64,000 nt of DNA from an uncultured Acidobacteriota bacterium (GCA_963821435.1 CAWGDR010000011.1:185277-249276), one strand, 5' to 3'; counted from the stretch's first letter, positions 25,590 to 54,959 are shown. Translations and numbers: made by a program. The notes: generated from the letters alone by a model not told the origin.

Positions 25590-25599
25590 GGGGGATGGA

Positions 25600-31507: not shown

Positions 31508-31528
31508 ATCCGCGTGATCAGGGAAGGC

Positions 31529-32023
31529 ATGCATGTCGTGAGGGCTCGGCGGGGATTCACGCTGATCGAGATGCTGATCGTCGTCGCGATCATCGGGATC
31601 ATCGTCGCCATTTCCGTGGCCAACCTCATAAGCGCGGTCCAGCGGGCCAAGCAGAGGCGCTCGATGGGAGACATGCGGACGGTGGCCCTCGCCGTCGAGA
31701 GCTTCACGACCGACTTCAACCGCTATCCGGCGGCGGCCGGGTTCGGCCTCCCGTCGGGCCTGAGCCTCCCGACGGCCACGCTGGGCGACGTGGTCTCGCA
31801 GCTCGCCCCGACTTACCTCAGGACCGTTCCGCTCCTGGACGGCTGGAACTCCTGGTTCACCTACTCGGTGAGCGAGGAGCGGTACGACTACGCGATCCGT
31901 TCGAATGGCGCGGACGGGGCGCCCGAGTCGGCGCCCCCGTTCGGTCCCACTCATCGCTTCGACAGCGACATCATCCTCGTGGACGGGATGTTCGCGCAGT
32001 ACCCCGAGGGGGTGCAGAAGTGA
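31529..32023 (+). CDS. GspG/PulG-like prepilin (type IV pilin-like) 1
   Basis: MHVVRARRG/FTLIEMLIVVAIIGIIVAI is a class III signal peptide with G-1, F+1 and E+5. It is followed by QRAKQRRSMGDMRTVALAVESF. The protein is a paralogue of the next gene. Confidence 0.85.
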   Translation: MHVVRARRGFTLIEMLIVVAIIGIIVAISVANLISAVQRAKQRRSMGDMRTVALAVESFTTDFNRYPAAAGFGLPSGLSLPTATLGDVVSQLAPTYLRTVPLLDGWNSWFTYSVSEERYDYAIRSNGADGAPESAPPFGPTHRFDSDIILVDGMFAQYPEGVQK

Positions 32024-32141
32024 GGGGAGCGGCGACAATGGATGGATGGGACGCAGTCGAGGAGCCGACAAAATTTGTCAGGTCGAGCGTCACGCGGACG
32101 GATTCTGTCCGTAAGTGTTGCAGGAACAGAGCTTGAACATC

Positions 32142-32157
32142 TGGCAACGAACTTGAA
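32142..32157 (+). promoter_or_regulatory. candidate sigma-54 (-24/-12) promoter upstream of pilin gene 2
   Basis: TGGCAACGAACTTGAA: TGGCA at 32142-32146 and TTGA at 32153-32156 (GG-N10-GA). It sits in a 156-bp lower-GC intergenic spacer, 24 nt upstream of the AGGAGG-ATG start. Confidence 0.4.
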
Positions 32158-32179
32158 TACCCAAGGCAGGAGGTTTTCA

Positions 32180-32677
32180 ATGAGACTCAATCGGAGCAAG
32201 AAGGGTTTCACCCTCATCGAGCTTCTGATCGTCGTCGCCATCATCGGCATCATCGTGGCGATTGCGATTCCGAACCTGCTCAACGCCATCCAGCGGGCGA
32301 AGCAGAAGAGGACGATGGGCGACATGCGGACGATCGGCACCGGTGCCGAGGCGTACGCGGTCGACACGAACCGGTACCCGTCGGCGGCCGGTTATTCGCT
32401 TCCGTCGGGCATGAGCATGCCGACGACCACGCTCGGCGGCACCAACATGCCGAACCTGGTCCAGCCCACGTACGTCCGGGTGCTGCCGCTCCTGGACGGG
32501 TGGAACTCGTGGTTCATGTACACCACGACCGGTCAAGACTACATCATCCTCTCGAACGGCAAGGATGGCACAATTGACGGCGGCGCCCAGCCCATCGGTC
32601 CCACGACCGACTTCAACCAGGACATCATCTTCGCCGACGGACAGTTCCTCCAGTTTCCCGAAGGAATCCAGAAGTAA
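32180..32677 (+). CDS. GspG/PulG-like prepilin (type IV pilin-like) 2, probable major pilin
   Basis: AGGAGG RBS precedes the ATG at 32180. MRLNRSKKG/FTLIELLIVVAIIGIIVAIAIPNLL carries the class III signal. A strong terminator lies immediately downstream. Confidence 0.85.
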   Translation: MRLNRSKKGFTLIELLIVVAIIGIIVAIAIPNLLNAIQRAKQKRTMGDMRTIGTGAEAYAVDTNRYPSAAGYSLPSGMSMPTTTLGGTNMPNLVQPTYVRVLPLLDGWNSWFMYTTTGQDYIILSNGKDGTIDGGAQPIGPTTDFNQDIIFADGQFLQFPEGIQK

Positions 32678-32717
32678 CCGGCGACATCGGCCGGGCCTCT
32701 TGCCGGCCGGGAGAACG

Positions 32718-32747
32718 GGCCCCCGCCTCGCGGGGGCCTTTTCTTTT
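32718..32747 (+). terminator. Rho-independent terminator after pilin gene 2
   Basis: GGCCCCCGC-ctc-GCGGGGGCC is a 9-bp GC stem, followed by TTTTCTTTT. A second hairpin (GGCCGG...CCGGCC) lies at 32689-32708. Confidence 0.7.
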
Positions 32748-32791
32748 CGGGGCCCGGATCGCTCCGGGCGCTTCCGTAGAATCGGCCGAAG

Positions 32792-35050
32792 ATGAAGGCG
32801 CCGCTCCTGGGAGCCCTTCTCGGGCTTGTTCTCGGTGGCGCGCTCCTTCTTCCGGCGGCGGTGTCGGGCGGGGTCCCGGCCCGCGGCGACCTGCCCGATT
32901 TCTTCTGGCCGATGAAGGCGTACACGGCCTCGCGCTGGGCGACCGGGAACGTGCCGCTCTGGAACCCGCTCTCGGGATGCGGAGAGCCCTGGCTGGCCCA
33001 GCTTCAGCCGGGGGCCCTCTTCCCGCCGGACCTGCTCTTCCTCCTCCCGGGCGCCGCGGGACCGATGGCGTCGCTCGCGTTCCATCTCGCGGTCGCCGCC
33101 GCCGGGATGGCCGCATGGCTCTCGAGCCTCGGCCGGTCGCGGCTCGCGTCGCTGGCCGGGGCGGCGGTCTTTGCGGGCGGGGGCGCGTTCGTCTCCCTGA
33201 TTCCGGTCCTCAACAACTTCACGACCGCGGCCTGGCTCCCGTGGATCTTTCTGGGAGCGCAGCGCGCCGTCCGCGGGGAGGGCGTGCCGGTTCTCGGCGC
33301 CTCGACCGCGCTCGCGTTTCTCGGCGGCGAGCCGGCCCTTGCGGTGGCCGGAACGCTGGCCGCGGCCACGGTTTCGTGGGCCGCCCGTTACGAGGAGCCC
33401 GGTCTCGCCGGCGTCGTGCCGGGCCGCGCCTTCCGGCGGCTCGCCGCCGGCGTCCTCCTCGGGACCGGGTTGTCCGCCGCCGCGGCCCTGCCTTTCGTCG
33501 AGCTCGTCGTCGCCTCGGGCCGCTTGACGAACGTCACGCGGGAGGAGGCGCTCGCCCGGGCCGTCGGCTTCTCGGACCTCGCCGACTCGGTCTGGCCGCC
33601 TCCCGCCTCGATGACGGGGGGCGAGTCGGCCGGGCGAGGCGGCTACCTCGCCACGCTGGCGATCGGACCCCTCGCGTTCCTGCTCGCCGCCGGCGGAGCG
33701 GCAGGTCTCGAGGACCGCCGCCGCTTCCTCCGCGGGCTCCTGGCCGTCGCGGCCCTCGGCCTCGTCCTGTCGCTCGGGGCCCGGGGAGGGCTTGCGGCGC
33801 TGCTCTGGGACAGCGGCCTGGTCCGGGGCCTCCGCTACCCGGCGCGGTGGATCGTCTTTCCGCACCTCGTCCTCGCCCTCCTCGCGGGCGCCGGGGTCGA
33901 CGGGTGGCGCCGGGAGAACGCCGATGGCCGGGAGCGGCTCTTCGGTCTCGCGACGCTGCTCGTCGCGGCGGGCCTCTTCGCCGCGGCCCTCCTCGAGCCC
34001 GGGCGCCGGGTCGGCGACGGCGTGGCGCGCGCCGCCGCCGGGTTCGCGGCGGCGGCCGGCGGAGCGGTCCTGCTCCGTCTCTGGCGGAGGCCGGGGGCGG
34101 GGGCGGAGCCGCGGGGCGCTGGTCTGCTCCTCGTCCTGGTCGCCGCCCCCCTTCCCTGGTTCGCCGCCGCCGCCGTCGCCGCGGCTCCCGCGCGCGATCT
34201 CCTCACGCCCGCCCGGATCGCCGGCGGTTCCCGCCCTGGCGACGCCGGCCGACTCCTCGTGGCGGTCCACGACCGGCATCTCCTCTCCCGCTTCGTCACG
34301 TCGGGGCCCGACACCTCGCTCGTCGCGATGGTCCGCCGCGCCCATGCCTCGATGGCCGGCTACGGGAACCTTCGGTCGGGGGTCGCGACGGCCGGCTCCG
34401 CCTCGCCGATCCAGGACCCGCGCCGCGCGCGCCTTCTGGGAGCCGCGCTGGGCGGCGGCGACGCCCCCGCTCTCCTCTCGCTCGCCGACGTCCGCGGGAT
34501 CGTCACCCCGTATCCGACGACGATCCCGGGAGCGCGCCTCGCCGGGCGGGAAGAAGGCGTCCTCCGGTACGCGCTTCCGGCCCCGGCCGGCCGCGTCCTC
34601 TTCGTCCGCGAGGCCCGGGTTGCCGGAGACGACGAGGTCTGGCGGGCCCTGACGACGCCCGGATTCGAGCCCGACGCGGTGGGGTTCGTGGCAGGAGCGG
34701 AGGCCCCGCTCCCGCCGCCGCGTCCGCGGAACGGCTTCTCCGTGGCCCGCGTCGTCCACGACGAGCCCGAGGCTCTCGAGGTCGCCACCTCGACGTCCGA
34801 GCCCGGCCTCCTCGTCGTCACCAGGAGCTGGGACCGGGGCTGGACGGCGAGCCTCGACGGGAAGGCGGCGCCGCTCCTTCGCGCCGACCTCGCGTTCCAG
34901 GGGGTCGTCGTCCCCGCGGGGGAGCACGTCGTCCGGCTCGTCTACGCCCCCGCGTCGTTCCGGACCGGGTCCGCGGTGTCGGCCGTCTCCCTCGTCGTCC
35001 TCCTCGGCCTCGTGCTCGCGGGGCGGCCGCCGCTGGGGGCCCGAAGGTGA
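32792..35050 (+). CDS. YfhO-like GT-C polytopic membrane protein (putative glycosyltransferase)
   Basis: Intact 752-aa ORF. The N-terminal loop DFFWPMKAYTASRWATGNVPLWNPLSGCGEPWLA precedes many TM helices. The C-terminal periplasmic domain plus final TM (LLVVTRSWDRGWTASLDGKAAPLLRADLAFQGVVVPAGEHVVRLVY...) is typical of YfhO proteins. Confidence 0.6.
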   Translation: MKAPLLGALLGLVLGGALLLPAAVSGGVPARGDLPDFFWPMKAYTASRWATGNVPLWNPLSGCGEPWLAQLQPGALFPPDLLFLLPGAAGPMASLAFHLAVAAAGMAAWLSSLGRSRLASLAGAAVFAGGGAFVSLIPVLNNFTTAAWLPWIFLGAQRAVRGEGVPVLGASTALAFLGGEPALAVAGTLAAATVSWAARYEEPGLAGVVPGRAFRRLAAGVLLGTGLSAAAALPFVELVVASGRLTNVTREEALARAVGFSDLADSVWPPPASMTGGESAGRGGYLATLAIGPLAFLLAAGGAAGLEDRRRFLRGLLAVAALGLVLSLGARGGLAALLWDSGLVRGLRYPARWIVFPHLVLALLAGAGVDGWRRENADGRERLFGLATLLVAAGLFAAALLEPGRRVGDGVARAAAGFAAAAGGAVLLRLWRRPGAGAEPRGAGLLLVLVAAPLPWFAAAAVAAAPARDLLTPARIAGGSRPGDAGRLLVAVHDRHLLSRFVTSGPDTSLVAMVRRAHASMAGYGNLRSGVATAGSASPIQDPRRARLLGAALGGGDAPALLSLADVRGIVTPYPTTIPGARLAGREEGVLRYALPAPAGRVLFVREARVAGDDEVWRALTTPGFEPDAVGFVAGAEAPLPPPRPRNGFSVARVVHDEPEALEVATSTSEPGLLVVTRSWDRGWTASLDGKAAPLLRADLAFQGVVVPAGEHVVRLVYAPASFRTGSAVSAVSLVVLLGLVLAGRPPLGARR

Positions 35051-36213
35051 ACCCCGCCGACGTCATCCACGCCGGGGCGTTCGCCCTCGGCGCGATCGTC
35101 GGGTCCTTCGCCAACGTCTGTATCCACCGGATGCCGCGCGGCGAGTCGGTGGTGACGCCGCCGTCGCGCTGCCCGGCCTGCGGAAAGCGGATCGCGTTCT
35201 ACGACAACGTTCCGATCCTCTCGTGGCTCGTCCTCCGCGGCCGGTGCCGGAGCTGCCGCGCGACGATCCCGGTCCGTTACCCGGTCGTGGAAGCGACGAT
35301 GGCGGCCGGCTTCCTCGCGGCGTCCCTCCTGTGGGGGGCCTCGGCCGCCACGCTCGCCGCGATGCTCCTCGGCGCGGCGTCGCTCATCCTCGTGGCGACC
35401 GACCTCGAGAGCCGGATCCTCCCGGACGAGGTCACGCTCGGGACCCTCGGCCTGGCGCTTCTCCTCGCCGTCGTCCGCGACGCCTGGGGGCGGCCGGCCG
35501 GCCAGCCGTTCCGCGTCGGGACGAGCGTCACGATGGAGGCGATCCTCGGGGCCGCCCTCGGCGCCGGCTTCCTCCTCGCGGCGCGGGCCCTCTACCTCCG
35601 GCTTCGCGGCATGGAGGGGATGGGGCTCGGAGACGTCAAAATGATCGCGATGATCGGCTCCCTGACGGGCCCCGCCGGCGTCCTCGTGGCGCTTTTTCTC
35701 GCCTCGCTCTCCGGAGCCGTCCTGGGCGGCGTCGCCGCGGCGGTCCGGCACGTCGGCTGGGCCCTGTCGTTCCGCCGCGCTCGGGCGGGGGGAGACGCTC
35801 CGGCCGCGGAGGCGCGGCGCCACGGCCTCCTCCTCGACCGGGAGGGGAGCGTCCTCGCAGCGTCTCTCCGCGTCGCCGGGATCCCGGGGTTCGCCGGGAC
35901 CGGCGAGAGCGCGGCCGGGTCGGCGGGCGCCGCGCGTCCGTTCGCGGCGTTCGTCCGCCTCGCCCGCCGCCGCGCGGGGCAGGGGCGATCGACCGGGTTC
36001 GGACGGCTCGCGCTCGACGACGGAGAGTACTTCCGCGTCCTCGCGGTGCGCGCGGTTCCCGCGGAAGAAGGGCTTCTCGTCCTGGTCTCCCGGGCCGACA
36101 TTCCGTTCGGCGTCTTTCTCGCCGCCGGCGGGCTCGCGGCGTTCGCCTTCGGCCGTGCGCTCCTCGCCCGCCTCGCCCCGGACCTGCCGCTCCCGGGGAG
36201 CCTCCTGCCGTGA
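35047..36213 (+). CDS. pilD: prepilin peptidase (A24 family) with an approximately 115-aa insertion before the last TM
   Basis: GTG overlaps the yfhO stop (GTGA). Zn-finger CPACG...CRSC, catalytic Asp motifs LVATDLESRILPDE and GLGDVKMIAMIG, and the terminal IPFGVFLAAG are present. An extra segment spans about aa 236-350. Confidence 0.85.
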   Translation: MNPADVIHAGAFALGAIVGSFANVCIHRMPRGESVVTPPSRCPACGKRIAFYDNVPILSWLVLRGRCRSCRATIPVRYPVVEATMAAGFLAASLLWGASAATLAAMLLGAASLILVATDLESRILPDEVTLGTLGLALLLAVVRDAWGRPAGQPFRVGTSVTMEAILGAALGAGFLLAARALYLRLRGMEGMGLGDVKMIAMIGSLTGPAGVLVALFLASLSGAVLGGVAAAVRHVGWALSFRRARAGGDAPAAEARRHGLLLDREGSVLAASLRVAGIPGFAGTGESAAGSAGAARPFAAFVRLARRRAGQGRSTGFGRLALDDGEYFRVLAVRAVPAEEGLLVLVSRADIPFGVFLAAGGLAAFAFGRALLARLAPDLPLPGSLLP

Positions 36214-37704
36214 GCAGCCGGCCGTTCGAACGGGAGGTCCGGCTCGCGGTGGTCGGCGGTGTCCTTTTCCTCCTCCTCCTCGCGGGCTTGTCGCTCGTCG
36301 TCCTCAGGAACGTCGTCGCATGGGGGGAACGGGAGGCGATCGCGCTCGCCGAGGCGCAGGACCCGGACGGTGGTGGAGAGGCTGCAGGTCTCCGGAGATC
36401 CGTCGCTCTCCCTCGGCGGCGACGCCGGCGTCGCGAAGCTGCTCGCCGACGGCCGGGCGCGGTACGCCGCCCTCTACGACGCCGAAGGGAATCGGCTCGG
36501 CGAGGCGGGCTTCCTTCCCGACGCGGCGCTCGCTCCGCGGAAGCTCCCGGCGGAGCGCCGTCCCCGGGGCGACGGCCTCCTCGCGCGCGACGACACGCAG
36601 GTCTCCCCGCCGGGCCTCGCGCGTCTCCGCCGGATTCTCCGGGGGGCGGCGGCTCCTGGCCGTCCTCTACGACGGGTCGGATTTCGTCGAGGCCCGGCGG
36701 AACGGGCGGATCCTGTCGTGGGTCGTCCCCGTCTCGGCCGTCGATCCTGACCGTCCTCCTCGTCCCCTTCTTCCGGCGGCTCATGCGGCCGATCGACGCG
36801 CTCACCGCGACCGCGAAGGGGGCGGGCGAGGTCGTGCGCGGGCCCGAGTCGCCGCACGACCCCCCGGGGCGCGACGAGACGGAGCGCGCCCTCCTGACCT
36901 TCCAGCGGACGATCGAGGCGCTGAAGCGCCGGACGGCCGAGCTGGAGGAGATGCGCGGGCGCGAGACAGCGGCGCGCCGACGACCTCGCCCTCCGCGCGG
37001 AGACGCTCGTCGTCTCGGCGAGCCGCCTCGAGCGGGAGCTCTCCTCGCAGCGCGAGCTCGCGCGCCTGGGCGAGATGTCGGCGGGCATCGCCCACGAGTT
37101 CCGGAACGCGACGGCGACGATCCTGGGCTACGCGCGCCTCGCGGCCCAGACGGAGGAGCCCGCCGCCCGTGCGCGGCACCTCGCGGCCATCGGGGCCGAG
37201 GCCGAGCACGTCGCGCGCGTGACCGGGGACTTCCTCTTCTTCGCGCGGCCCGAGAGGCTCGAGCTGCTGCCGACGGCGCTCGGACCGCTCCTCGCGGAGA
37301 TCGCGGCGGAGCAGAGGCAGATCACGCCGGGCGTCGCCGTCGAGGTCGGAGGGACCTTCGCGACCGCCCCGCTCGACGCCGCCCTCTACCGGAGGGCGAT
37401 CGTCAACCTCCTCCGGAACGCCGTCGAGGCGGCCCGATCCCGGGTGGTCCTTCTCGGCGAGGGGGAGGAGGGCGGGGTGGCCCGGGTCGCCGTCGAGGAC
37501 GACGGCGCCGGCGTGACGCCGGACGCCCTCCCGAAGCTCTTCGTTCCCTTCTTCTCGACGAAGGAAGGGGGAACCGGGCTGGGGCTGGCGCTCGTCGCGA
37601 AGATCGCCGCGCTCCACGGCGGCTCGGTCTCCGCGGAGCGCTCGGCCCTCCTCGGGGGCGCGCGCTTCGTCCTGTCGGTGCCGGTCGCGCCTCCCGCCGC
37701 CTGA
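36210..37704 (+). CDS. sensor histidine kinase (PilS/NtrB-like), about 4 frameshifts
   Basis: GTG overlaps the pilD stop. N-terminal TM LAVVGGVLFLLLLAGLSLVVL, a second TM ILTVLLVPFFRRLMRPI, and a HAMP-like coiled coil. HisKA is EMSAGIAHEFRNATATILGY and HATPase is NLLRNAVEA...VEDDGAGV...FFSTKEGGTGLGLA. Confidence 0.75.
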
Positions 37705-38823
37705 TCAGCGGGGCGGGCGAGGTCCCGGCGGCCGGGGCCTTCGGAGCGGCCCGCCGCTTCTCGACGAGGCCCTTGAAGCTCTCCTTGTCGAGCGCCTTCT
37801 CGAACGCCTCGTCGGGCGCCACGAGGTCGGCCACGACGAGGTCCGCGAGGTACTGGTCCATCCCGATCATCCCGGCCCCGCGCCCCGTCTGGATGAGCGT
37901 GTTGATCATGGCCGTCTTCCCCTCGCGGATGTTGTTGCCGAGCGCCGAGGAGGAGCGGAGCACCTCGAACGCGGGGACGCGCCCTCCCCCCTTGCGCTTC
38001 AGGAGGACCTGCGCGACGACGGCCTTCAGGACCTCCGCGAGGACGGTGCGCGTCTGCTCCTGCTCCTCGGCGGGGAAGGAGTCGATCAGCCGGTCGACGG
38101 CTCTTGGCCGACGAGTTGGTGTGAAGCGTGCCGAAGACGAGCAGGCCGGTCTCGGCGGCCTGCAGGGCGAGGCTCATCGTCTCGAGGTCGCGGAGCTCGC
38201 CGACGAGGACGACGTCCGGATCCTCGCGCATCGCCGCCTTGAGGGCGCCGGCGAACGTCGGCGTGTCGAAGCCGAGCTCCCGGTGCGTCATGACCGACTT
38301 CTGCGGCATGTGGACGAACTCGACCGGGTCCTCGATCGTGATGATGTGGAAGGCGCGCGTCCGGTTGATCCAGTCGATGAGCGCCGCGAGCGTCGTCGAC
38401 TTGCCCGAGCCGGTCGGCCCCGTGACGAGGATGAGCCCGCGCGGGAGCCGTGCCACGTTCGCGACGACGGGCGGGAGGCCGAGCTCCTCGACCGTGAGGA
38501 CCTTCGGCGGGATCATCCGGAGGACGGCGCCGGAGCCGTGCTCCTGCCGGAAGACGTTGACGCGGAAGCGCGCGACGTCCCCCATCCCGTAGGCGAAGTC
38601 GGTGTCGCCGGTCGACTTCCACTCCTGGTAGAGGTTCGGCGGGGCGATCGGGGACGAGGAGTCCCTCGAAGTCGTCCTCCGTCAGGGTCCTCCATTTCAG
38701 TCTCTGGAGGTCGCCGTCCACCCGGACGATCGGCGGGGAGCCGACGGCGAGGTGGAGGTCCGACGCCTTCTTGTCCACGACGATCCGGAGGAGGGTGTCG
38801 ATCCGGTTCTCGACGTGCGTCAT
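37705..38823 (-). CDS. pilT: type IV pilus twitching-motility/retraction ATPase PilT (about 2-3 frameshifts; 3' end uncertain)
   Basis: MTHVENRIDTLLRIVVDKKASDLHLAVGSPPIVRVDG..., then GDVARFRVNVFRQ, Walker A GPTGSGKSTT, ITIEDPVEF, DPDVVLVGELRD and LVFGTLHTN. The third frame gives AVDRLIDSFPAEEQ...ALGNNIREGK. The ATG overlaps the upstream stop (ATGA). Confidence 0.8.
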
Positions 38824-41336
38824 TCGAGCGCCTGCCTTTCCTCCGAGAGCAGCTTCTCGAACGGATCCGGCTTCAGCGCCTTCGCCATCGCGACCTCCGG
38901 GTCGACCGTCCCCTCCTCGCAGAGACGGAGGAGCGACTGGTCCATCGTCGTCATCCCGACGTTCTGGCCCGTCTGGAGAAGGGAGGGGAGCTGGTGCGTC
39001 TTCCCCTCGCGGATCAGCGACGCGACGGCCATCGTGGACCGGAGGATCTCGAACGCGGCGACGCGCCCGGCGAACCCCCGGCGCGGCAGGAGCGTCTGGG
39101 AGATGACGGCCTTCAGGGAGTCCGCGACCATGACCCGGATCTGCGACTGCTGGCCCGGAGGGAACGAGCTGACGATCCGGTCGATCGTGGCCGACGCGTT
39201 CGTCGTGTGGAGCGTTCCGAAAACGAGGTGGCCGGTCTCCGACGCGGTGATCGCGAGCGAGATCGTCTCGAGGTCGCGCAACTCGCCGACCATGATCACG
39301 TCGGGATCCTCCCTTAGCGCGGCCCGAAGCGCGCGGGCGAAGGAGGCCGTGTGGTGGGGGACCTGGCGCTGGTTGACGAGGGCTTCCTTGGCGGGGTGGA
39401 CGAACTCGACCGGATCCTCGACGGTGATGATGTGGCAGGGGCGCGTCTCGTTGATCCGGTCGAGGAGCGCGGCGAGCGTCGTCGACTTCCCGCACCCCGA
39501 GGGCCCCGTCACGAGGACGAGCCCCTGCGTGAACTTGAGGACGTCGGCGACCGACTCGGGGAGCCCGATCTCCTCGATCGACGGGATCGAAGCCGGGATG
39601 ACGCGGAACGAGGCGTCGTAACCGCCGCGCTGGGAGAAGAAGTTCGCGCGGAAGCGCCCCACCTTCGGCACCGCGATGCAGACGTCGATCTGCCGCTCGG
39701 TCTCGAGGCGCCGGAAGTCGGCCTCGTCGAGGACCTCGCGGATGAACGCCTTCGCGCGGTCGGCCGAGACGGTCGGCATCTCGAGAGGTTCGAGGGTTCC
39801 CTGGATCCGGCGGTGAGGGACGAAGCCCGTCGCGATGTGGAAGTCGGAGCCCCCCCGCGCGACCGTGTCGGCGAGGAGCTCCACGAGCCTCGTGGAGTCG
39901 CGGATCTGCGCGGGAGCCTCCACCTTCGCGTCCTCGATCTCCGGCAGGCCGGCGAGCGCCGCCTCGCCCGAGAGCCGGCCGACCAGTCGCCGGGCCTTTC
40001 CCCGGACGCGGGCATCGATCTGGGGCGTCTGGACGATCTTCGCGAGCGCGGGGGCGACGCGGGGGTCCTTGGCGCCGAGGCGGGCCATGCCGTCGAGGAC
40101 TTCCAGCTGCACGTCGGCGCGCGTCATCGCCTTCTTGAACCCCTCGAAGAGCGGACCGAGCGCGCGCGGGTCCCCGAGGTCGCCGAGCGCGGAGGCCGCC
40201 GGCATCGCGAGGTCCGGGTCGTCGAGGGCCTGCGAGAGCCGCGCGAGCACCTGGTCGTTCCCCGCACCGAATCGTCCCAGCGTCTCCACGGCCCGCGCCT
40301 TGACCCAGACGTCCGGGTCGTCGACGAGCTTCAGCCAGACGGGAATGGCCGAGGGATCGGCGAGGGCGAGCGTCATTTCCGACGCGGCCTTGGCGACGCC
40401 GGGGTCCGGTTCCTGGGTCAGCTTCAGGAGGGCGGGCACGAAGTTCGGAAGGCCCTCCTTCGCCGTCTCGACCGCGCGGTCGCGGACCCAGACAAACGAG
40501 CCGCGGAAGTGCTCCAGGATCCGGCGCGCGAGGAGGTCGGGCGCGTAGGGGAGGAGGAGGCCGAGGGTGCCGGCGCGGACGTTGGCGTTCCCGTCCGCGA
40601 GGAGCGGGACGATCTCGGGCGTGTGATCCAGCTTCGCGGAGGCGAGGAGCTTCTTCAGCGCCGAGAAGGACGCCTCCATGACGCGCCCGCCCCCCGACCT
40701 CGCCATCTGCAGGACGTCGGGGAAGTAGGTCTCGTTCGGGTTCTTCTCCAGGACGGCGAGCGCCGAGTAGCGGATCTCCTCGTTCTCGTCCTGGAGGAGG
40801 GGGACCGCGAGGTTCGCGGCCATCGCGGCGCTCCCCGCGAACGACATCTCGCTCACGGCCCGCAGCGCGCGGGCCCGGACGGCCGGGTTCGAGGCCTGCA
40901 TCACCTTCTTGGCGATGTCGAAGGCCGTCTCCGCGGGCACCTCCTTCGCCAGCTCGAGCGCGGCGAGCCGCGCGAAGTCGTCCCCGTGGCCGGCGATCTC
41001 CGTGAGGAACGCGGCGAGGTGGGGGCCGGCGAGCTCCTTCAGGAAGCGCTGGACGGCGCGCCGCACGGCGTCCGAGCGCGTCCTGAGGAGCGGCAGCAGC
41101 GCCTGGAGGCCGGCCCGGTCCTTCCGGCGGCGAAGGATGTCGAGCGCGGCGGCGCGGATCTCGGGCACGGGGTCGACGGCCGCCCAGGCGATCCACGCGG
41201 GCTCCGGGTTCTCCAGGGCGAGGAACTTCCCGAGCAGCTCCTTCCGCTGGTTCTCGTTCGTGAAGCGGTGCTCCCGGAGCTGGACGACGAACGCCGGCTC
41301 GCTCCTGAGGCCCTTCCGGAGCCTGTCTAGGACCAA
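38820..41336 (-). CDS. HEAT-repeat domain fused to a complete PilT/PilU-like hexameric ATPase
   Basis: Intact 838-aa ORF with a TTG start 4 nt after AGGAGG. About aa 1-470 carry repeated ...AVRARALRAV.., ..NANVRAGTLGLL.., DPDVWVKARAVETLGRFG and DPDLAMPAASALGDLGDPRA (PBS-lyase HEAT-like). About aa 475-838 form a full PilT: [48 protein letters not shown] and VASLIREGK. Confidence 0.8.
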   Translation of the reverse strand: MVLDRLRKGLRSEPAFVVQLREHRFTNENQRKELLGKFLALENPEPAWIAWAAVDPVPEIRAAALDILRRRKDRAGLQALLPLLRTRSDAVRRAVQRFLKELAGPHLAAFLTEIAGHGDDFARLAALELAKEVPAETAFDIAKKVMQASNPAVRARALRAVSEMSFAGSAAMAANLAVPLLQDENEEIRYSALAVLEKNPNETYFPDVLQMARSGGGRVMEASFSALKKLLASAKLDHTPEIVPLLADGNANVRAGTLGLLLPYAPDLLARRILEHFRGSFVWVRDRAVETAKEGLPNFVPALLKLTQEPDPGVAKAASEMTLALADPSAIPVWLKLVDDPDVWVKARAVETLGRFGAGNDQVLARLSQALDDPDLAMPAASALGDLGDPRALGPLFEGFKKAMTRADVQLEVLDGMARLGAKDPRVAPALAKIVQTPQIDARVRGKARRLVGRLSGEAALAGLPEIEDAKVEAPAQIRDSTRLVELLADTVARGGSDFHIATGFVPHRRIQGTLEPLEMPTVSADRAKAFIREVLDEADFRRLETERQIDVCIAVPKVGRFRANFFSQRGGYDASFRVIPASIPSIEEIGLPESVADVLKFTQGLVLVTGPSGCGKSTTLAALLDRINETRPCHIITVEDPVEFVHPAKEALVNQRQVPHHTASFARALRAALREDPDVIMVGELRDLETISLAITASETGHLVFGTLHTTNASATIDRIVSSFPPGQQSQIRVMVADSLKAVISQTLLPRRGFAGRVAAFEILRSTMAVASLIREGKTHQLPSLLQTGQNVGMTTMDQSLLRLCEEGTVDPEVAMAKALKPDPFEKLLSEERQALE

Positions 41337-41514
41337 GAGACCTCCTTTCCCCTATCGTAGCCGACGGGTGACTCCGGCGACGGGAACCCGCCCGAGGCCC
41401 GCCGGACATGTTACGAAAAGTGTCGCTTCGAGCACGCGAGGCCCGGGTCGCCGGAGCCCGGCCGTTCTAGCAACTCTCTTGTATTGGAGTCAGTTCCACC
41501 CGGTTAGCCCATCC

Positions 41515-41549: not shown

Positions 41550-42200
41550 ATGTCCTACGTCCGAACATCTTCGCGGTCGGCTCCCCGTGGGTTCTCGCTC
41601 GTCGAGTTGCTCGTGGTGATCGCGATCGTCGGGCTCCTCCTCGGGATTGGCGGGATCGAGGCGGGGAAGGCGATCAAGCGGCAGCAGCCGGCCGCGGTGG
41701 CGCAGAACCTCCAGATCTTCGCCAAGAGGGTCTTTACGGAGAGCCAGCGGCGGGGCGCCGTCACCTTCCTCCGGATCGCCCCGGCGACGGTGGCCGACCC
41801 GAAGTCGATCCCGGTCCAGATCTGGGCGGACGCCGACGCGAGCGGAACGCTCGACACGACGCTCGACACGCTCGTCGAAACGTACGCGATCCCCCTCACG
41901 GACGCGGCCGGGAACGACGTCCAGCGGATCGCCCTCTCGACCGCCGCGAAGAACCAGGTGGAGACCCAGAACTGGTCCTATAACACCGATGGCGATTGGA
42001 CGAAGGAGCGGATCCTCGAGTGCGATTTCCAGGGACGCGCGCTCGACACGTCCGGCACCCCGCCGGTGCAGATCGCCGGGGCCGCGACGCTCTCGGTGAC
42101 GCACGCCGAGATGGTGGCCGGAAACCTCCGCGCGAAGAAGAACTTCCAGCTCCGCATCAGCCCGGCCTGGAACGTCCAGGTCGTCGACTTCCTCTACTGA
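41550..42200 (+). CDS. minor pilin/pseudopilin (GspH/FimT-like)
   Basis: SAPRG/FSLVELLVVIAIVGLLLGI is a prepilin N-terminal methylation motif. This is the first of four consecutive prepilin-type genes. Confidence 0.75.
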   Translation: MSYVRTSSRSAPRGFSLVELLVVIAIVGLLLGIGGIEAGKAIKRQQPAAVAQNLQIFAKRVFTESQRRGAVTFLRIAPATVADPKSIPVQIWADADASGTLDTTLDTLVETYAIPLTDAAGNDVQRIALSTAAKNQVETQNWSYNTDGDWTKERILECDFQGRALDTSGTPPVQIAGAATLSVTHAEMVAGNLRAKKNFQLRISPAWNVQVVDFLY

Positions 42201-42202
42201 CG

Positions 42203-42751
42203 ATGACGACGAAGATGAAGCCGCGCCCTCCCGTTTCCGCCCCCCACGCCTCCCGGGGCTCCAGCCTGGTCGAGGTCCTCGTGGCGCTGGCGATGATGGG
42301 GATCATGATGGTCGGGATCCTCCAGATGTTCTCCGTGGCGCTCGTCGTCAGCGAGGGAGCGGGGGCGCGGACGCAGCTCCTCTTCAAGTGCCAGCAGGTC
42401 GTGGAGAACATCCGGTACTACGTCTCGGTCGTCCGCTCGGGCGGCACGCCCCCCGCGAACACGGGGATCCCGCTCACTTTCACGGCGGGGACGACGTTCA
42501 ACCTCCCCTACGACGGAACCCCGGCCGCAGAGTGGGCCTACTGGGGACCGAACGGGGCGAACGTCATGGAGCAGGTGAAAGGCCCCTACCAGATCTCCTA
42601 CCGCGTGGAGCAGTCGAGCGCGAGCCTCAACCCGGTCTGGATCATCACGGTCACCGCGGTGCCGACGGCGGACACGACCGCGGCGCAGCGGTACCTCCGG
42701 GTCGGGCCCGGAACCAAGCGAGTGGACTATGTGGCGTCGTTCCCGCCGTAA
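42203..42751 (+). CDS. minor pilin (PilV-like)
   Basis: ASRG/SSLVEVLVALAMMGIMMVGIL is a prepilin-type leader with E+5. It starts 3 nt after the preceding stop. Confidence 0.7.
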   Translation: MTTKMKPRPPVSAPHASRGSSLVEVLVALAMMGIMMVGILQMFSVALVVSEGAGARTQLLFKCQQVVENIRYYVSVVRSGGTPPANTGIPLTFTAGTTFNLPYDGTPAAEWAYWGPNGANVMEQVKGPYQISYRVEQSSASLNPVWIITVTAVPTADTTAAQRYLRVGPGTKRVDYVASFPP

Positions 42752-44048
42752 GCCGCTCCGCGGCTTCAGCCTCGCGGAGGCGAGCATCTCGCTGACGCTC
42801 CTGATCATCGTGATGGTCGTGTCGCTGACGCTCCTCTTCTCGATGCGCTCCTTCGCGGAGCGCCAGCAGTTCGTCATGGAGCCCCGCCAGACGGCCCGCC
42901 GCGCCGTCGAGTACCTGTCGTTCTTCCTGGAGGGGGCCGCGGATCTCAATCGCGAGGGCGGTATGCCGAACGCGATCGTCACGTACTACAACTCCGACGC
43001 GTCGAACGACGCCAGCCTGGTGCAGGCCTCCTACAACAACCTCGCGGACGGCAAGGACGGGAACGCCGCCCTGAGCCTCGCGACACCCCTCGGGACGATT
43101 GCGAGCACGAATTTCGGCGACCTCGGGACGGACATCATCTCGGTCGCCGTGCCGACCGTCCGCCCCGCGAAGTACGCGATCTTCGGCGCCTTCCCGGGGA
43201 ACGGGGCGGACCGGGACCTCTGGATCAACTTCCGGGAAGGGTGCGGCGTCAGCGACGCCAGGAACATGGAGCTCTTCAAGGCGGCCACGTTCGGCGGGCC
43301 CACGGACGCCGATTCCAGCCCGGACAACCTGACGGTCGTCGACAACAACGGAGTCTGGGCCTATCTGAAGATCGTCTCCTACGTTTCCCCGAGCAACTGC
43401 GCTTCGGCGAACCAGGTCATCCATGTCAAGGTCAGCCCCGGGCAGGCGCCGGGAAGCGGCGGGCCGATCGCGCCTCCGTTCGGCTCCCTCGCGGACCCGG
43501 CGGTCGGCGACCCGTCGTTCCTCGTCACCGGCCTCCAGTACTTCTCCTTCCGGGTCCGGACCGACGCGGCTACAGGGATCCCGAGCCTCGAGCAGAAGAA
43601 CGGCCTCTTCAACCCGCTCACCGACAACCCCGGCGCCGCGTTCGTGCCGGTCATCGAGAACGTCGAGGACCTGCAGGTCGCCTACATGTACTTCACCGGC
43701 GAGATCTGGAACTCGGCCGTCCAGGTGATGTCCGCGGCAATGGCCAACTGCACGACCTGCCTCACCGACGTTCCGATCCAGTCGGGGCCGAAGGCGGCAT
43801 CGTTCCAGCCGCTCGACGTCCTGAACGTGGCCGGGCTGCGCTTCAGCCTCGTCGGCCGGTCGCGGCCGATGAGCCTCCAGGTCCGAACCCAGACGAACAT
43901 CTCCCCGTCCGGCGCCCCGGGCACGACCGGCAACCGGCACTTCCGGCCCGCCATCGAGGACCACACGGCGGCGGCCGCCTACGACAACTTCGACCACCAG
44001 CGCCTCACGACGACCCTCATGCTCCGCAACCGGATGCTGGGAAACTGA
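42729..44048 (+). CDS. minor pilin (PilW-like)
   Basis: PLRG/FSLAEASISLTLLIIVMVV is the leader. The internal VIENVEDLQVAYMYF block is typical of PilW-family proteins. It overlaps the preceding gene by 23 nt. Confidence 0.7.
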   Translation: MWRRSRRKPLRGFSLAEASISLTLLIIVMVVSLTLLFSMRSFAERQQFVMEPRQTARRAVEYLSFFLEGAADLNREGGMPNAIVTYYNSDASNDASLVQASYNNLADGKDGNAALSLATPLGTIASTNFGDLGTDIISVAVPTVRPAKYAIFGAFPGNGADRDLWINFREGCGVSDARNMELFKAATFGGPTDADSSPDNLTVVDNNGVWAYLKIVSYVSPSNCASANQVIHVKVSPGQAPGSGGPIAPPFGSLADPAVGDPSFLVTGLQYFSFRVRTDAATGIPSLEQKNGLFNPLTDNPGAAFVPVIENVEDLQVAYMYFTGEIWNSAVQVMSAAMANCTTCLTDVPIQSGPKAASFQPLDVLNVAGLRFSLVGRSRPMSLQVRTQTNISPSGAPGTTGNRHFRPAIEDHTAAAAYDNFDHQRLTTTLMLRNRMLGN

Positions 44049-44050
44049 CG

Positions 44051-44695
44051 ATGAGAAGGAACCAGAACCTGACGCGGCCGACGCGGGGCAGCGCGCTCGT
44101 CACGGTGATCCTCGTGGTCCTGATCCTGACGGTCGTCGGGGTCGGCATCGCCTACTTCACGCAGATGGAGGACCGGCTCTCGGGGAACAGCCGCGTGATG
44201 CGCGCCGCGTTCTACGCGGCGGACGCCGGCATCCGGAAGGGGGAGACCGTCATCTCCGGCGTCAACTCCGCCGGCCTCCCGCTCGACACGATGCTGCAGT
44301 ACCTCGGGGGGACGCCCCCCCTGAACCCGCCGGGCGGCGGGTGGCAGGCGGTCATCCTGAACGCGCAGGACCCGGAGGACTCCACGACCAAGGAGTTCCT
44401 CAACATGCCGATCACCCTGCCGGGAGCGGTCGTGGACCGGGGGGACTACTCGCTCTACGTGAGGAACAACCAGGAAGAGACCGATCCCTTGGCTTCGCCG
44501 ACGGTGGACAAGGACAACATCATCAACCTGATCTCCGTCGGACGGATCGTCGCCTTCGGGGGCAACTACACGAAGATCCTGGAGGAGCAGCTCGTAGTCG
44601 GCTCCCCCGGCGTACACGGTGGTGGGCAGAAGGAAATCGACTCCGGCGGCACCGGCTCCGGCCAGAAGAGCGTCAATGCCGGAGGCCACCCGTGA
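44051..44695 (+). CDS. PilX-like minor pilin (PilX N-terminal domain)
   Basis: [26 protein letters not shown]...[14 protein letters not shown] matches the PilX_N pattern. Confidence 0.65.
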
Positions 44696-44708
44696 CTGTG
44701 AGGACGAA

Positions 44709-51227: not shown

Positions 51228-52178
51228 ATGCGTCGCCTTCTTCCGTCGACGATCCTTGCGACCGCCCTCCTCTTGGGCTTCGGGGCGGTTGCGGACGATG
51301 TCATCCTCAAGGACGGCCGGGTCATCCGGACAGTCGGACCTCCCATGCTCAAGGGACGCATGGTCATCCTGAAGACGGCCGACGGCCAGCTCCTCTCTCT
51401 CCCGGCGGGGGAGATCGACCAGGAGAAGACGGCGGCCGCCCGTGTCGCGCCGACGCCAGCTCCCGCTCCGACGGCGACGCCGAACCGCCCTCTGACGCCC
51501 GCCGAGGCCGCCCGCCTGACGAAGGGGAAGAAGGCCACCGTCGTCCTGACCGATGACCAGGTCGCGGGAGGAGAGCTCGCGGGAGCAGACCCCGAAAAGA
51601 AGGAGGCCGGTGAAGAGCGTGTCGACGTCGCCAACGCGTCGGCGACGAAGACCAAGGAGGGCTACGCGTTCACCGGGTCGCTCGTCAACAGCGGAAAGGT
51701 GGATGTCTCGGGCGTGGGGGTCACGATCGAGGCGATCGGCCCGGACAACAAGACGATCGTCTCGGGGTTCGGCCAGGTCGCGAAAGACAACCTGGGTCCG
51801 GGCGAGAAGAGCGCGTTCACGGCGGCCCTGGCGACCGACGCCGAGGCGGCCACGTTCCGCTACGTCCCGCAGTGGCAGGTCAAGATGGGCGTGAAGGGCG
51901 CGAGCGGAAGCGGATCGGGCCCCTCGGGTCCCGCAGGGGCCGCGGATTCGAGCGGCATCGTCCCGACGCCGACGCCCGGCGTGATCCCGTCGCAGGTCGG
52001 TGAAAAGGCGGACAGGCTCCCCGGCGACAAGGCGGCCGCGCCGCCGCCGACGCCACTGCCGCGGCCCGACATCGCGCCGCAGTCGCCGAACGCCGCGATC
52101 GGCGCCCCCGACAAGCCGGGGGGGACGTTCATCCCCAAGCCGACCGGCGACCAGCCGAAGCCTCCGTCGGGGAACTGA
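51228..52178 (+). CDS. secreted protein with FxLYD-like beta-sandwich domain and Pro-rich tails
   Basis: Signal MRRLLPSTILATALLLGFGAVA. The central region YAFTGSLVNSGKVDVSGVGVTIEAIGPDNKTIVSGFGQVAKDNLGPGEKSAFTAAL resembles FxLYD domains. The C-terminus is P/G-rich. Confidence 0.45.
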   Translation: MRRLLPSTILATALLLGFGAVADDVILKDGRVIRTVGPPMLKGRMVILKTADGQLLSLPAGEIDQEKTAAARVAPTPAPAPTATPNRPLTPAEAARLTKGKKATVVLTDDQVAGGELAGADPEKKEAGEERVDVANASATKTKEGYAFTGSLVNSGKVDVSGVGVTIEAIGPDNKTIVSGFGQVAKDNLGPGEKSAFTAALATDAEAATFRYVPQWQVKMGVKGASGSGSGPSGPAGAADSSGIVPTPTPGVIPSQVGEKADRLPGDKAAAPPPTPLPRPDIAPQSPNAAIGAPDKPGGTFIPKPTGDQPKPPSGN

Positions 52179-52234
52179 ACGGGAGACGGCGGTGCCGAAA
52201 CCGCTCGCGCCCTAGGGACGGGCCCCGCCACGCC

Positions 52235-53596: not shown

Positions 53597-54959
<1,363 letters not shown>

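What the first reader, a model, noticed from the sequence alone, without database searches (positions are those of the whole stretch)
38820..41336. HEAT-repeat domain (about 470 aa) fused N-terminally to a complete PilT-class ATPase
**Seen.** This is an uninterrupted 838-aa ORF. The N-terminal half consists of repeated PBS-lyase/HEAT-like helical hairpins (..AVRARALRAV.., DPDVWVKARAVETLGRF, ASALGDLGDPRA). The C-terminal half is a full PilT with its own N-domain, Walker A (GPSGCGKST, a Cys variant of GPTGSGKST), Asp box, Walker B and His box. It is translationally coupled (ATGA) to a canonical pilT downstream.

**Established.** PilT and PilU act as bare hexamers that dock on the platform.

**Inference.** A HEAT scaffold on each protomer could recruit cargo or a regulator, or anchor the motor. 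It may form hetero-hexamers with the adjacent PilT.
Basis: partly seen in the sequence, partly recalled or inferred. Interest (0 to 1): 0.65.

Follow-up and report, generated by a model that had tools for sequence, protein, structure and literature searches.

The report
PilT pilus motor with HEAT-repeat arm
This is a real, conserved and so far undescribed version of the bacterial pilus-retraction motor PilT: it carries a 460-residue HEAT-repeat arm at its front end and is always encoded directly ahead of an ordinary PilT, which points to a two-motor retraction unit with a built-in docking or regulatory scaffold.

Summary
On the minus strand (41336->38820) an 838-aa ORF starts at TTG behind an AAGGAGG ribosome-binding site. 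It encodes an HEAT solenoid (aa 1-462), a poorly conserved 20-aa linker, and a complete PilT (NCBIfam TIGR01420, 429 bits against a cutoff of 319, model positions 2-341 of 343). All four catalytic boxes are intact.

The fusion is not an artefact. About 40 full-length homologues (48-96 % identity in the HEAT half) come from independent assemblies, Illumina ones included. A profile search of 1.84 billion representatives places at least about 80 clusters (at 50 % identity) with this architecture among the top 150 hits. Named sources are Acidobacteriota/Thermoanaerobaculia and Myxococcota.

In every lineage examined (10 of 10 deep lineages, plus every Thermoanaerobaculia locus that extends past the gene), the gene is followed by a canonical PilT gene, from an 11-nt overlap to a 52-nt gap. 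Other neighbours vary. I read this as a conserved two-motor cassette, analogous to PilT/PilU, in which the HEAT arm tethers or regulates. That function is inferred, not shown.

One correction: the downstream pilT in this window is broken by three single-base indels, which are probably assembly errors. No searched paper describes the fusion, and databases name it plain "PilT/PilU". I rate it a new variant of a known kind, of moderate interest.

The parts
38820..41336 (-). HEAT-PilT coding sequence: 838 aa, TTG start at 41336, TGA stop at 38822-38820.
   Evidence: It aligns in a single frame, aa 1-839, to the L001 homologue.
41341..41347 (-). Shine-Dalgarno sequence AAGGAGG, 4 nt upstream of the TTG start.
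   Evidence: Sequence read. The N-terminus matches the family consensus MVLxKLRKGLRSEP.
39951..41336 (-). HEAT (PBS-lyase-like) alpha-solenoid, aa 1-462. It has about 29 helices, or about 14 hairpins. The most conserved stretch is aa 281-400, with the signature D-x-W-x-(R/K) (W283/R285/R287, D342/W344).
   Evidence: Pfam HEAT_2 in 7 stretches. PDB sequence hits to alphaRep designed HEAT proteins. AF2 helices, pLDDT mostly 85-94. Conservation profile.
39888..39950 (-). Linker, aa 463-483. The model gives it no secondary structure, and it is the least conserved segment.
   Evidence: AF2 DSSP and pLDDT about 69. Column identity 0.15-0.17.
39597..39887 (-). PilT N-terminal domain (N2D-type, PAS-like), aa 484-580.
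   Evidence: TIGR01420 model positions 2-341 begin at aa 484. AF2 strands and helices. Foldseek match to Geobacter PilT4 6ojx, TM 0.91 normalised by target.
38823..39578 (-). PilT C-terminal ATPase domain, aa 587-838. It includes the AIRNLIRE-equivalent AVASLIRE (aa 770-777) and a conserved C-terminal helix (F826/E827).
39480..39506 (-). Walker [10 protein letters not shown], aa 611-619.
   Evidence: The Cys is shared by the whole close clade (Ser in the second clade). The Lys is kept in 42 of 43 and 27 of 27 representatives.
39405..39425 (-). Asp box, TVEDPVE, aa 638-644.
39273..39308 (-). Walker B with the catalytic Glu, DPDVIMVGELRD, aa 677-688.
39204..39239 (-). His box, ETGHLVFGTLHT, aa 700-711. 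Both His residues are present here.
37705..38823 (-). Partner canonical pilT. Its ATG at 38823-38821 overlaps the HEAT-PilT stop (ATGA). In this window it is broken by three 1-base insertions, near 38655, 38102 and 37714. Read through, it gives a 371-aa PilT.
   Evidence: It is intact in the 93 %-identical relative L003 and in other relatives.
41550..44692 (+). Divergent minor-pilin operon: two N_methyl prepilins (41550-42197 and 42197-42748), a 439-aa gene (42729-44045) homologous to the weak-N_methyl gene of L001, and a PilX_N protein (44054-44692).
31514..37674 (+). Convergent pilus gene set: two T2SSG/N_methyl pilins (31514-32020 and 32042-32674), a YfhO-like membrane protein (32852-35032), the prepilin peptidase A24 (35530-36114), and a HisKA/HATPase_c sensor kinase (36225-37674, frame-shifted in the window).

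Best explanation
**What it is (shown).** The gene encodes a PilT-class type IVa pilus retraction ATPase that looks catalytically competent. Each protomer carries an N-terminal PBS-type HEAT solenoid of about 460 aa on a flexible linker of about 20 aa. It belongs to an old, widespread and unnamed family found in Acidobacteriota/Thermoanaerobaculia, Myxococcota and unplaced metagenomic lineages. Members are invariably encoded immediately upstream of a canonical bare PilT, and are often translationally coupled to it.

**How it most likely works (inferred).**
- The two proteins form a two-motor retraction module analogous to PilT/PilU.
- The bare partner PilT hexamer docks on the PilC platform.
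- The HEAT-PilT hexamer acts as the second, accessory ring.
- Its N-terminal face, and therefore six HEAT arms, point into the cytoplasm.
- The arms would serve as protein-binding scaffolds that tether the motor pair to the machine or to a landmark, or that receive a regulator.

**Context.** In this organism the cassette sits inside a type IVa pilus locus that also holds major and minor pilins, a PilX-like protein, the prepilin peptidase and a sensor kinase.
For: **Identity (shown).**
- HEAT_2 in 7 stretches plus T2SSE.
- TIGR01420 scores 429 bits against a cutoff of 319, over the full model length.
- The best solved relatives are PilT (5zfq 335 bits, 3jvu 332 bits), well above PilU (9n32 229 bits) and PilB (111 bits).
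- AF2 model: mean pLDDT 83.8, solenoid plus linker plus PilT fold. Foldseek TM 0.91 to PilT4 6ojx.
- Walker A, Asp box, Walker B with the catalytic Glu, and both His residues are intact.

**The fusion is real and conserved (shown).**
- About 40 full-length proteins of 837-840 aa share 48-96 % identity in the HEAT half. A second clade shares 25-30 % identity.
- The ORF is uninterrupted in 20 or more independent loci, including Illumina assemblies.
- At least about 80 clusters (at 50 % identity) show the architecture among the top 150 of a 1.84-billion-protein profile search, and their alignments run colinearly across the junction.
- Pfam confirms the architecture on sampled representatives.

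**Partnership (shown as a genomic pattern).**
- A canonical PilT gene of 353-431 aa follows directly, from an 11-nt overlap to a 52-nt gap (+72 or less in L002, where the partner is frame-shifted), in L001, L002, L022, L023/24, L025, a JGI contig, and L026-L029. The other flanking genes are unrelated among these loci.
- The same holds in every Thermoanaerobaculia locus (L003-L020) that extends past the gene; L017 ends inside it.

**Geometry (inference from the literature).**
- PilT bridges PilU to PilC as stacked hexamers.
- The PilU C-terminus contacts D2 and E53 on the N-terminal face of PilT (10.1101/2025.10.30.685630).
- An N-terminal appendage is therefore compatible with the distal ring but would obstruct the bridging ring.

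**Pilus context.**
Against:
- By sequence the ATPase half is PilT-like, not PilU-like. It is also encoded upstream of its partner, the reverse of the usual pilT-pilU order.
- Outside Thermoanaerobaculia the cassette is not next to pilus genes, so a link to type IVa pili in those lineages is assumed.
- In the ~830-aa class, many members have lost the second His of the His box (28 of 43 representatives) or changed the catalytic Glu (9 of 43, mostly to Asp). The family may therefore not have one uniform mechanism.
- The HEAT half is only moderately conserved, and its conserved positions are mostly the structural repeat consensus. No obvious ligand patch emerges.
- The NJ tree is unrooted by an outgroup and has no support values.
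Confidence: 0.6

Rival explanations
1. HEAT-PilT is the primary, platform-docking retraction motor. Its HEAT arm plays the role that N-terminal domains play in GspE and PilB, anchoring the ATPase to the cytoplasmic ring or platform (PilM/PilC, analogous to GspL). The bare downstream PilT would then be the accessory, PilU-like motor.
For: - The gene order (HEAT-PilT first, bare PilT second) mirrors pilT followed by pilU.
- The ATPase half scores as PilT, not PilU.
- Other secretion ATPases use N-terminal extensions for anchoring or input, such as GspE-GspL (4pht appears among the structure hits) and the PilB MshEN domain. One family member even carries MshEN ahead of the HEAT region (P0225).
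Against: - In the PilT-PilU model, the N-terminal face of the bridging ring, including residue 2, is the contact surface for the second ring. A 460-aa appendage attached there would probably block it.
- The partner PilT also scores as PilT rather than PilU (350 against 229 bits).
- Catalytic degeneration is seen in HEAT-PilT members, not in the partners. That fits an accessory role better than a primary one.
Confidence: 0.2
2. HEAT-PilT is mainly a regulator or adaptor rather than a force-generating motor. It would form a ring, or mixed rings with the partner, that gates when or where the bare PilT can engage. Examples are sequestering PilT away from the machine, or coupling it to a signal through a protein bound by the HEAT arm.
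For: - The His-box second His is lost in 28 of 43 representatives of the ~830-aa class, and the catalytic Glu is changed in 9 of 43 (7 to Asp).
- The partner is always present and always catalytically intact.
- Sensory or signalling neighbours or domains occur in some lineages: an MshEN fusion, Ser/Thr kinases and TPR proteins downstream, and a sensor kinase here.
Against: - The window protein and its whole clade, and all 27 representatives of the ~920-aa class, keep every catalytic residue. That argues ATP turnover matters.
- PilT/PilU precedent is for homohexamers (PMC6821130).
Confidence: 0.15
3. The fusion is an artefact: two genes (a HEAT protein and a PilT) merged by a sequencing or assembly indel in an error-prone window.
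For: The window does carry indel errors in the adjacent pilT and in the kinase gene.
Against: - The same 819-845-aa single ORF, without stops, is found in more than 20 independent loci, including Illumina assemblies, and in dozens of protein clusters from ENA, JGI, NCBI and Logan.
- Alignments run colinearly across the linker.
- No conserved internal start exists (4 of 20 loci).
Confidence: 0.01

Closest known systems
PilT (type IVa pilus retraction ATPase; e.g. P. aeruginosa PilT 3jvu, Geobacter PilT4 5zfq/6ojx, Aquifex PilT 2ewv)
   Same: The C-terminal 355 aa form a complete PilT. The N2D-type domain and ATPase domain are present, along with Walker A, Asp box, Walker B and His box. Identity to solved PilTs is about 45-47 %, with TM up to 0.91. 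The gene lies in a pilin, PilD and minor-pilin locus.
   Different: It carries a 460-aa HEAT solenoid and a linker at the N-terminus, whereas described PilTs are bare proteins of about 345-390 aa. The PilT signature AIRNLIRE reads AVASLIRE. Walker A has Cys in place of Ser.
PilU (PilT-dependent accessory retraction ATPase) and the stacked PilC-PilT-PilU model
   Same: It is a second PilT-family ATPase encoded in the same operon as a canonical PilT. It probably needs that partner, and an N-terminal appendage fits the distal position of a stack.
   Different: By sequence it is nearer to PilT than to PilU (335 against 229 bits). The gene order is reversed. No PilU-type C-terminal extension was demonstrated. 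PilU has no structured N-terminal domain.
N-terminal input or anchor domains of the sister ATPases: GspE N1E (binds GspL) and PilB/MshE MshEN (binds c-di-GMP)
   Same: The principle is the same: a hexameric secretion ATPase with an extra N-terminal domain on a linker that anchors or regulates the motor. One family member combines MshEN, HEAT and PilT (P0225).
   Different: The fold is different (alpha-solenoid) and there is no homology. These domains are known on extension and secretion ATPases, not on PilT. No ligand is known for the HEAT arm.
PBS-lyase-type HEAT repeat proteins (NblB/CpcE-like; the alphaRep designed proteins are derived from this consensus)
   Same: The repeat consensus and fold agree. 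Pfam HEAT_2 and HEAT hits exceed their cutoffs; the HEAT_PBS hit is below its own. PDB hits to alphaRep reach 8e-28. NCBIfam NblB gives a sub-threshold hit.
   Different: No lyase context is present. It is fused to a motor ATPase, and its repeats carry family-specific Trp residues (DxWxVR).

Membership tests
PilT/PilU family type 4a pilus ATPase (NCBIfam TIGR01420) | Full-length match above the curated cutoff. | tested here: met
   428.9 bits against a cutoff of 319.1. aa 484-823 cover model positions 2-341 of 343.
PilT/PilU family type 4a pilus ATPase (NCBIfam TIGR01420) | Walker A, Asp box, Walker B with the catalytic Glu, and a His box with both His residues. | tested here: met
   [26 protein letters not shown] and TGHLVFGTLHT.
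PilT proper (as opposed to PilU or PilB) | Closer to characterised PilT than to PilU or PilB. | tested here: met
   PilT 327-335 bits, PilU 213-229 bits, PilB about 111 bits. Foldseek ranks PilT4 and PilT above PilU.
PilT proper | AIRNLIRE motif in the C-terminal domain (recalled from the literature, not retrieved here). | tested here: inconclusive
   The window has AVASLIRE, matching 5 of 8 positions. The LIRE part is conserved in the family.
PilT proper | Bare two-domain architecture of about 345-390 aa with no further domain. | tested here: not met
   838 aa with a 462-aa HEAT solenoid ahead of the PilT part.
PilT proper | Forms hexamers, hydrolyses ATP and powers pilus retraction. | not testable with these tools
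   Only a monomer prediction was available. No biochemical or genetic data exist.
PilU | Sequence groups with PilU; encoded downstream of pilT; C-terminal extension whose conserved Lys contacts the N-terminal face of PilT. | tested here: not met
   It scores lower against PilU than against PilT and is encoded upstream of the bare PilT. The C-terminal contact was not testable (one search gives the criterion).
HEAT repeat, PBS-lyase-like (Pfam PF13646 HEAT_2 / PF02985 HEAT / PF03130 HEAT_PBS) | Repeat matches above the gathering cutoffs, and an alpha-solenoid fold. | tested here: met
   HEAT_2 scores 102 bits (cutoff 27.7) and HEAT scores 40.7 bits (cutoff 23.5). HEAT_PBS scores 16.5 bits, below its cutoff of 20.9. 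AF2 gives about 29 helices in hairpins with high pLDDT. AlphaRep hits appear.
Type IVa pilus gene cluster (context) | Prepilins with an N_methyl motif, a PilX-like minor pilin, and the prepilin peptidase, in the same locus. | tested here: met
   PilB, PilC and PilMNOPQ were not found within the 64-kb window: the only T2SSE-type hits are the two PilT genes.

The most novel reading that the evidence does not exclude
HEAT-PilT defines a third class of pilus retraction ATPase, beside PilT and PilU. It would form the distal ring of a stacked two-motor complex, and its six HEAT arms would form a cytoplasmic crown. The crown would recruit a specific partner (a regulator, a polarity or landmark factor, or a machine component) and so set when and where the bare PilT retracts. 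In lineages that have lost the His-box His or the catalytic Glu, it would have become a pseudo-ATPase adaptor. WD40-PilT and MshEN-HEAT-PilT fusions in the same protein universe would then be variations on one theme: scaffold-bearing PilT motors.
Probability: 0.25. Interest if true: 0.7.

Novelty: new variant of a known kind. Interest (0 to 1): 0.5.

Why it matters
Retraction ATPases are treated as bare hexamers whose recruitment and regulation depend on other proteins. How two retraction motors cooperate has only just been worked out for PilT and PilU. Here is a widespread family in which a PilT carries its own large protein-binding scaffold and is genetically locked to a bare PilT. It offers a natural system for three questions:
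- How are retraction motors tethered and gated?
- Is stacking of two rings general beyond Gammaproteobacteria?
- What does the free N-terminal face of the distal ring do?

It also matters for annotation. These 820-960-aa proteins are currently labelled simply "PilT/PilU family ATPase" or "twitching motility protein PilT". That label hides the architecture in soil and wetland Acidobacteriota and Myxococcota.

Tried and rejected
1. **Fusion as an assembly artefact: rejected.** Intact single ORFs occur in more than 20 loci and in dozens of clusters.
2. **An internal start in the linker giving a separate bare PilT isoform: rejected.** The window has GAGGA followed by a 7-nt spacer and GTG at V472. 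Only 4 of 20 loci have any SD-plus-start in the linker.
3. **PilU identity: rejected** by score and by gene order.
4. **A real pilT pseudogene downstream: judged unlikely.** Related Illumina-derived contigs lack a base at all three frameshift sites, and removing those bases restores a 371-aa PilT. A strain-specific decay cannot be fully excluded.
5. **Literature: nothing found.**
   - No paper combines "HEAT repeat", "type IV pil", "ATPase" and "PilT", or PF00437 with PF13646.
   - The M. xanthus paralogue paper reports only disordered extensions.
   - Searches found nothing relevant.
6. **Transcription evidence: none available.** No RNA run could be listed.
7. **Taxon of the second clade (L002): not resolved.** No source names it.
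8. **The Foldseek search of the whole model** was dominated by the PilT half and said nothing specific about the HEAT arm.
9. **The NJ tree gives weak evidence only.** Partner PilTs group with stand-alone PilT representatives, and the ~920-aa class is monophyletic. There is no outgroup and no support values, so a single origin of the fusion is suggested (colinear junction) but not proven.


Full report

Yes, with one clarification and one correction. The clarification is that the ORF lies on the minus strand (41336->38820). It is 838 aa long and starts at TTG. AAGGAGG sits 4 nt upstream of the start.

At about 70 % G+C, long open frames arise by chance. A 1107-aa shadow ORF overlaps on the same strand. 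Four things single out this frame:
- GC3 of 0.95.
- Pfam hits to HEAT_2 (7 stretches, 2e-29) and to T2SSE at aa 488-752 (3e-45).
- An end-to-end NCBIfam PilT/PilU match: TIGR01420, 428.9 bits against a cutoff of 319.1, aa 484-823 covering model positions 2-341 of 343.
- Full-length homologues.

The Walker A, Asp, Walker B and His boxes are intact. The TGA stop overlaps the ATG of the next gene as ATGA.

**2. Correction: the downstream pilT is broken in this window.**

Translating the three frames shows the PilT sequence jumping frame near 38655 and near 38102. tblastn with a relative's PilT shows the same. Logan contigs from Illumina bog metagenomes that carry near-identical sequence lack one base at 38655, at 38102/38103 and at 37714. 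Removing those three bases, all of which lie in G/C runs, restores a complete 371-aa PilT with a stop at about 37705.

The neighbouring histidine-kinase gene also changes frame several times relative to its homologue. The closest genomes are nanopore-style "MFD" MAGs, some of which are themselves riddled with frame changes (L018, L019). I therefore regard these indels as assembly errors rather than gene decay, although a strain-specific pseudogene is not strictly excluded. The 838-aa ORF itself shows no frame change against any relative.

**3. Is the fusion genuine?**

All three are answered in favour of the fusion.
- Searching only the N-terminal 480 aa returned about 40 proteins of 837-840 aa that carry both PF13646 and PF00437. 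Identity in the HEAT half ranges from 96 % down to 48 %. A second clade of 827-840 aa shows 25-30 % identity.
- Eighteen GTDB species representatives, all Thermoanaerobaculia or Acidobacteriota MAGs, carry the gene.
- The ORF is uninterrupted in more than 20 loci, including Illumina assemblies made with megahit or SPAdes.
- A profile of 44 full-length members was searched against 1.84 billion cluster representatives. Among the best 150, roughly 48 representatives of about 800-880 aa align end to end. About 33 representatives of about 910-960 aa align colinearly from the middle of the HEAT region through the linker to the C-terminus.
- That amounts to at least about 80 clusters at 50 % identity, and it is a lower bound because the list is cut at 150.
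- Pfam scans of sampled representatives confirm HEAT plus T2SSE. They also reveal a 1336-aa MshEN-HEAT-PilT protein from an Archangium MAG.
- Source names, where present, are Thermoanaerobaculia, Acidobacteriota, Myxococcales, Myxococcota, "Deltaproteobacteria" and, for one record, "Pseudomonadota". The product names are always the generic "PilT/PilU family type 4a pilus ATPase" or "twitching motility protein PilT".

**4. Anatomy.**

The AlphaFold2 model was built on the 44-sequence alignment (mean pLDDT 83.8). It shows:
- About 29 helices forming an alpha-solenoid over aa 1-462.
- A stretch without secondary structure at aa 463-483 (pLDDT about 69).
- The PilT N-domain at aa 484-580 and the ATPase domain at aa 587-838.

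The pTM of 0.52 indicates that the solenoid and the motor are not confidently placed relative to each other, which points to a tethered arm. Foldseek matches the motor half to Geobacter PilT4 (TM 0.91 normalised by target) and P. aeruginosa PilT, ahead of PilU, DotB and PilB. Sequence scores agree: PilT 327-335 bits, PilU 213-229 bits, PilB about 111 bits. The HEAT half hits the alphaRep designed proteins, which are PBS-HEAT consensus repeats.

Across 68 diverse members, mean column identity is:

| Segment | Mean column identity |
|---|---|
| HEAT half | 0.36 |
| Linker | 0.17 |
| PilT N-domain | 0.48 |
| ATPase domain | 0.60 |

The best-conserved HEAT stretch is aa 281-400, with a recurrent D-x-W-x-(R/K) signature (W283/R285/R287 and D342/W344).

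**5. Catalytic census.**

| Group | Walker A Lys | Catalytic Glu | Second His of the His box |
|---|---|---|---|
| ~830-aa class (43 representatives) | 42/43 | 34/43 (Asp in 7) | 15/43 (Asn 16; Pro, Arg, Gln in others) |
| ~920-aa class (27 representatives) | 27/27 | 27/27 | 24/27 |
| Partner and stand-alone PilTs (7) | 7/7 | 7/7 | 7/7 |

The window protein and most of its close clade keep everything; P0040, P0042 and P0043 in that clade have Asn or Ser at the second His. The Cys in Walker A (GPSGCGKST) is a clade trait, with Ser in the second clade. So this member is predicted to be active, while part of the family may be drifting towards a non-catalytic role.

**6. Genomic context.**

The window is syntenic with L001, a 2.18-Mb contig whose HEAT-PilT is 62 % identical. 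The locus contains:
- An ATP-grasp gene.
- Two T2SSG/N_methyl pilins.
- A YfhO-like membrane protein.
- The prepilin peptidase.
- A HisKA sensor kinase, convergent with the pilT pair.
- Divergently upstream: two N_methyl prepilins, a 439-aa gene, a PilX_N protein, and a large (about 1070 aa) protein in the PilY1 position.

This is a type IVa pilus locus. PilB, PilC and PilMNOPQ are not within the 64 kb.

The decisive pattern comes from wider sampling. HEAT-PilT is immediately followed on the same strand by a canonical PilT gene of 353-431 aa. Where the partner gene was called intact, spacing ranges from an 11-nt overlap to a 52-nt gap (+72 or less in L002), and L022 has two PilTs. This holds in:
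- every Thermoanaerobaculia locus that extends past the gene (L003-L020; L017 ends inside it);
- ten deep lineages: L001, L002 (second clade), L022 (~920-aa class), L023/24 (Myxococcales), L025 (Archangium), a JGI contig, and L026-L029.

The remaining neighbours share nothing among these loci. The conserved unit is therefore the two-gene cassette.

In a crude NJ tree, the partners group with stand-alone PilT representatives rather than with their own HEAT-PilT. The pair is thus not a recent duplication.

**7. Mechanism.**

What is shown: a PilT-class motor carries a tethered HEAT solenoid and is genetically locked to a bare PilT.

What is inferred: the two act together as a retraction module. 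The best precedent is PilT/PilU.
- They are homohexamers (PMC6821130).
- PilU reaches the machine only through PilT.
- Recent modelling, genetics and in-situ data support stacked rings, PilC-PilT-PilU.
- The PilU C-terminus (K348) contacts PilT D2 and E53, that is, the N-terminal face of PilT (10.1101/2025.10.30.685630).

A 460-aa appendage attached to residue 1 of a PilT would obstruct that face. It is therefore more compatible with the distal ring, or with a ring that carries no further partner. My preferred model is this:
- The bare partner docks on PilC.
- HEAT-PilT is the accessory ring.
- Six HEAT arms project into the cytoplasm as binding scaffolds for tethering or regulation.

The rivals are the following:
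- HEAT-PilT is the primary motor and the HEAT arm is a GspE-N1E-like anchor.
- HEAT-PilT is mostly a regulator or adaptor. This is suggested by catalytic degeneration in part of the family and by signalling neighbours or domains in some lineages.

None of these could be tested here, because only monomer prediction was available.

**8. Comparison with known families and novelty.**

The protein passes the membership tests for the PilT/PilU family and sits nearer PilT than PilU. It fails the "bare two-domain architecture" that characterises every described PilT. It is neither PilU-like in sequence nor in gene order.

Full-text searches found no paper that links HEAT repeats with PilT or type IV pili. 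The 2026 study of M. xanthus PilT paralogues reports only disordered extensions. The proteins are present in public databases but under generic names.

I therefore class this as a new variant of a known kind: real, widespread and uncharacterised. It is not categorically new.

**9. Verdict.**
- Observation: confirmed, on the minus strand, with the downstream pilT broken by probable assembly indels.
- Interpretation: partly supported.
- Interest: moderate (0.5). The conserved HEAT-PilT/PilT cassette is a tidy, testable addition to the emerging picture of cooperating retraction motors, but its function rests on inference.

Noticed in passing
window 37705-38823 (-) and 36225-37674 (+): The partner pilT carries three single-base insertions in G/C runs (about 38655, 38102 and 37714). 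The adjacent HisKA kinase changes frame several times relative to its L001 homologue. The window behaves like a long-read MAG with homopolymer indels, so other apparent pseudogenes in it should be distrusted.
   Followed up: yes
window 44619-46658 (+), repeat 45006-45889: An ORF lies between the PilX_N gene and the large PilY1-position gene. It contains about 380 aa of (Thr-Pro-Thr-x)n low complexity, encoded by a degenerate 12-nt tandem unit ACGCCGACGGTG with about 74 copies. This could be a mucin-like or O-glycosylation-type linker in a pilus-associated protein. L001 has no counterpart detected by tblastn. The GV-rich 245-aa ORF on the opposite strand is its shadow.
   Followed up: partly
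window 46655-49873 (+): A 1073-aa protein with no Pfam hit is conserved with a 1083-aa protein of L001 (42 % identity). It lies downstream of the minor pilins, in the position where PilY1-type tip adhesins are usually encoded.
   Followed up: partly
proteins P0243, P0249 (representative library): PilT-family ATPases also occur fused to an N-terminal WD40 beta-propeller (730 and 937 aa). This is a second kind of protein-interaction scaffold on a PilT motor. Several other PilTs of 460-910 aa have N-terminal extensions without any Pfam match.
   Followed up: partly
proteins P0149, P0152, P0154, P0164 (representative library): Single polypeptides carry two T2SSE/PilT domains in tandem (723-1024 aa; one also has a DUF4388 domain). 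Either these are covalent PilT-PilT fusions or they are merged gene calls.
   Followed up: no
L025 6001-10011 (protein P0225, Archangium sp. MAG): A 1336-aa MshEN + HEAT + PilT protein is followed by a bare PilT and a TPR protein. MshEN is the c-di-GMP-binding domain of MshE/PilB-type extension ATPases, so this hints at second-messenger input into a retraction motor. It is seen on only one contig.
   Followed up: partly
L022 8001-12929: In the ~920-aa class, HEAT-PilT is followed by two canonical PilT genes in a row (364 and 355 aa, both PilT-like by PDB score), making a three-ATPase operon.
   Followed up: partly
family alignment, position equivalent to H710 of the window protein: The second His of the His box is replaced (Asn, Pro, Arg, Gln and others) in 28 of 43 representatives of the ~830-aa class. 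The catalytic Glu is changed in 9 of 43 (Asp in 7). The partners keep both residues.
   Followed up: yes
window 52004-53593 (+), 53722-54975 (-), 25522-28917 (+), 16521-17678 (-): Other genes in the window are a sigma-54 activator (REC, Sigma54_activat and HTH_8; PilR/NtrC type) about 10 kb from the pilin genes, selenocysteine synthase SelA, an RND efflux pump and a Ser/Thr protein kinase.
   Followed up: no
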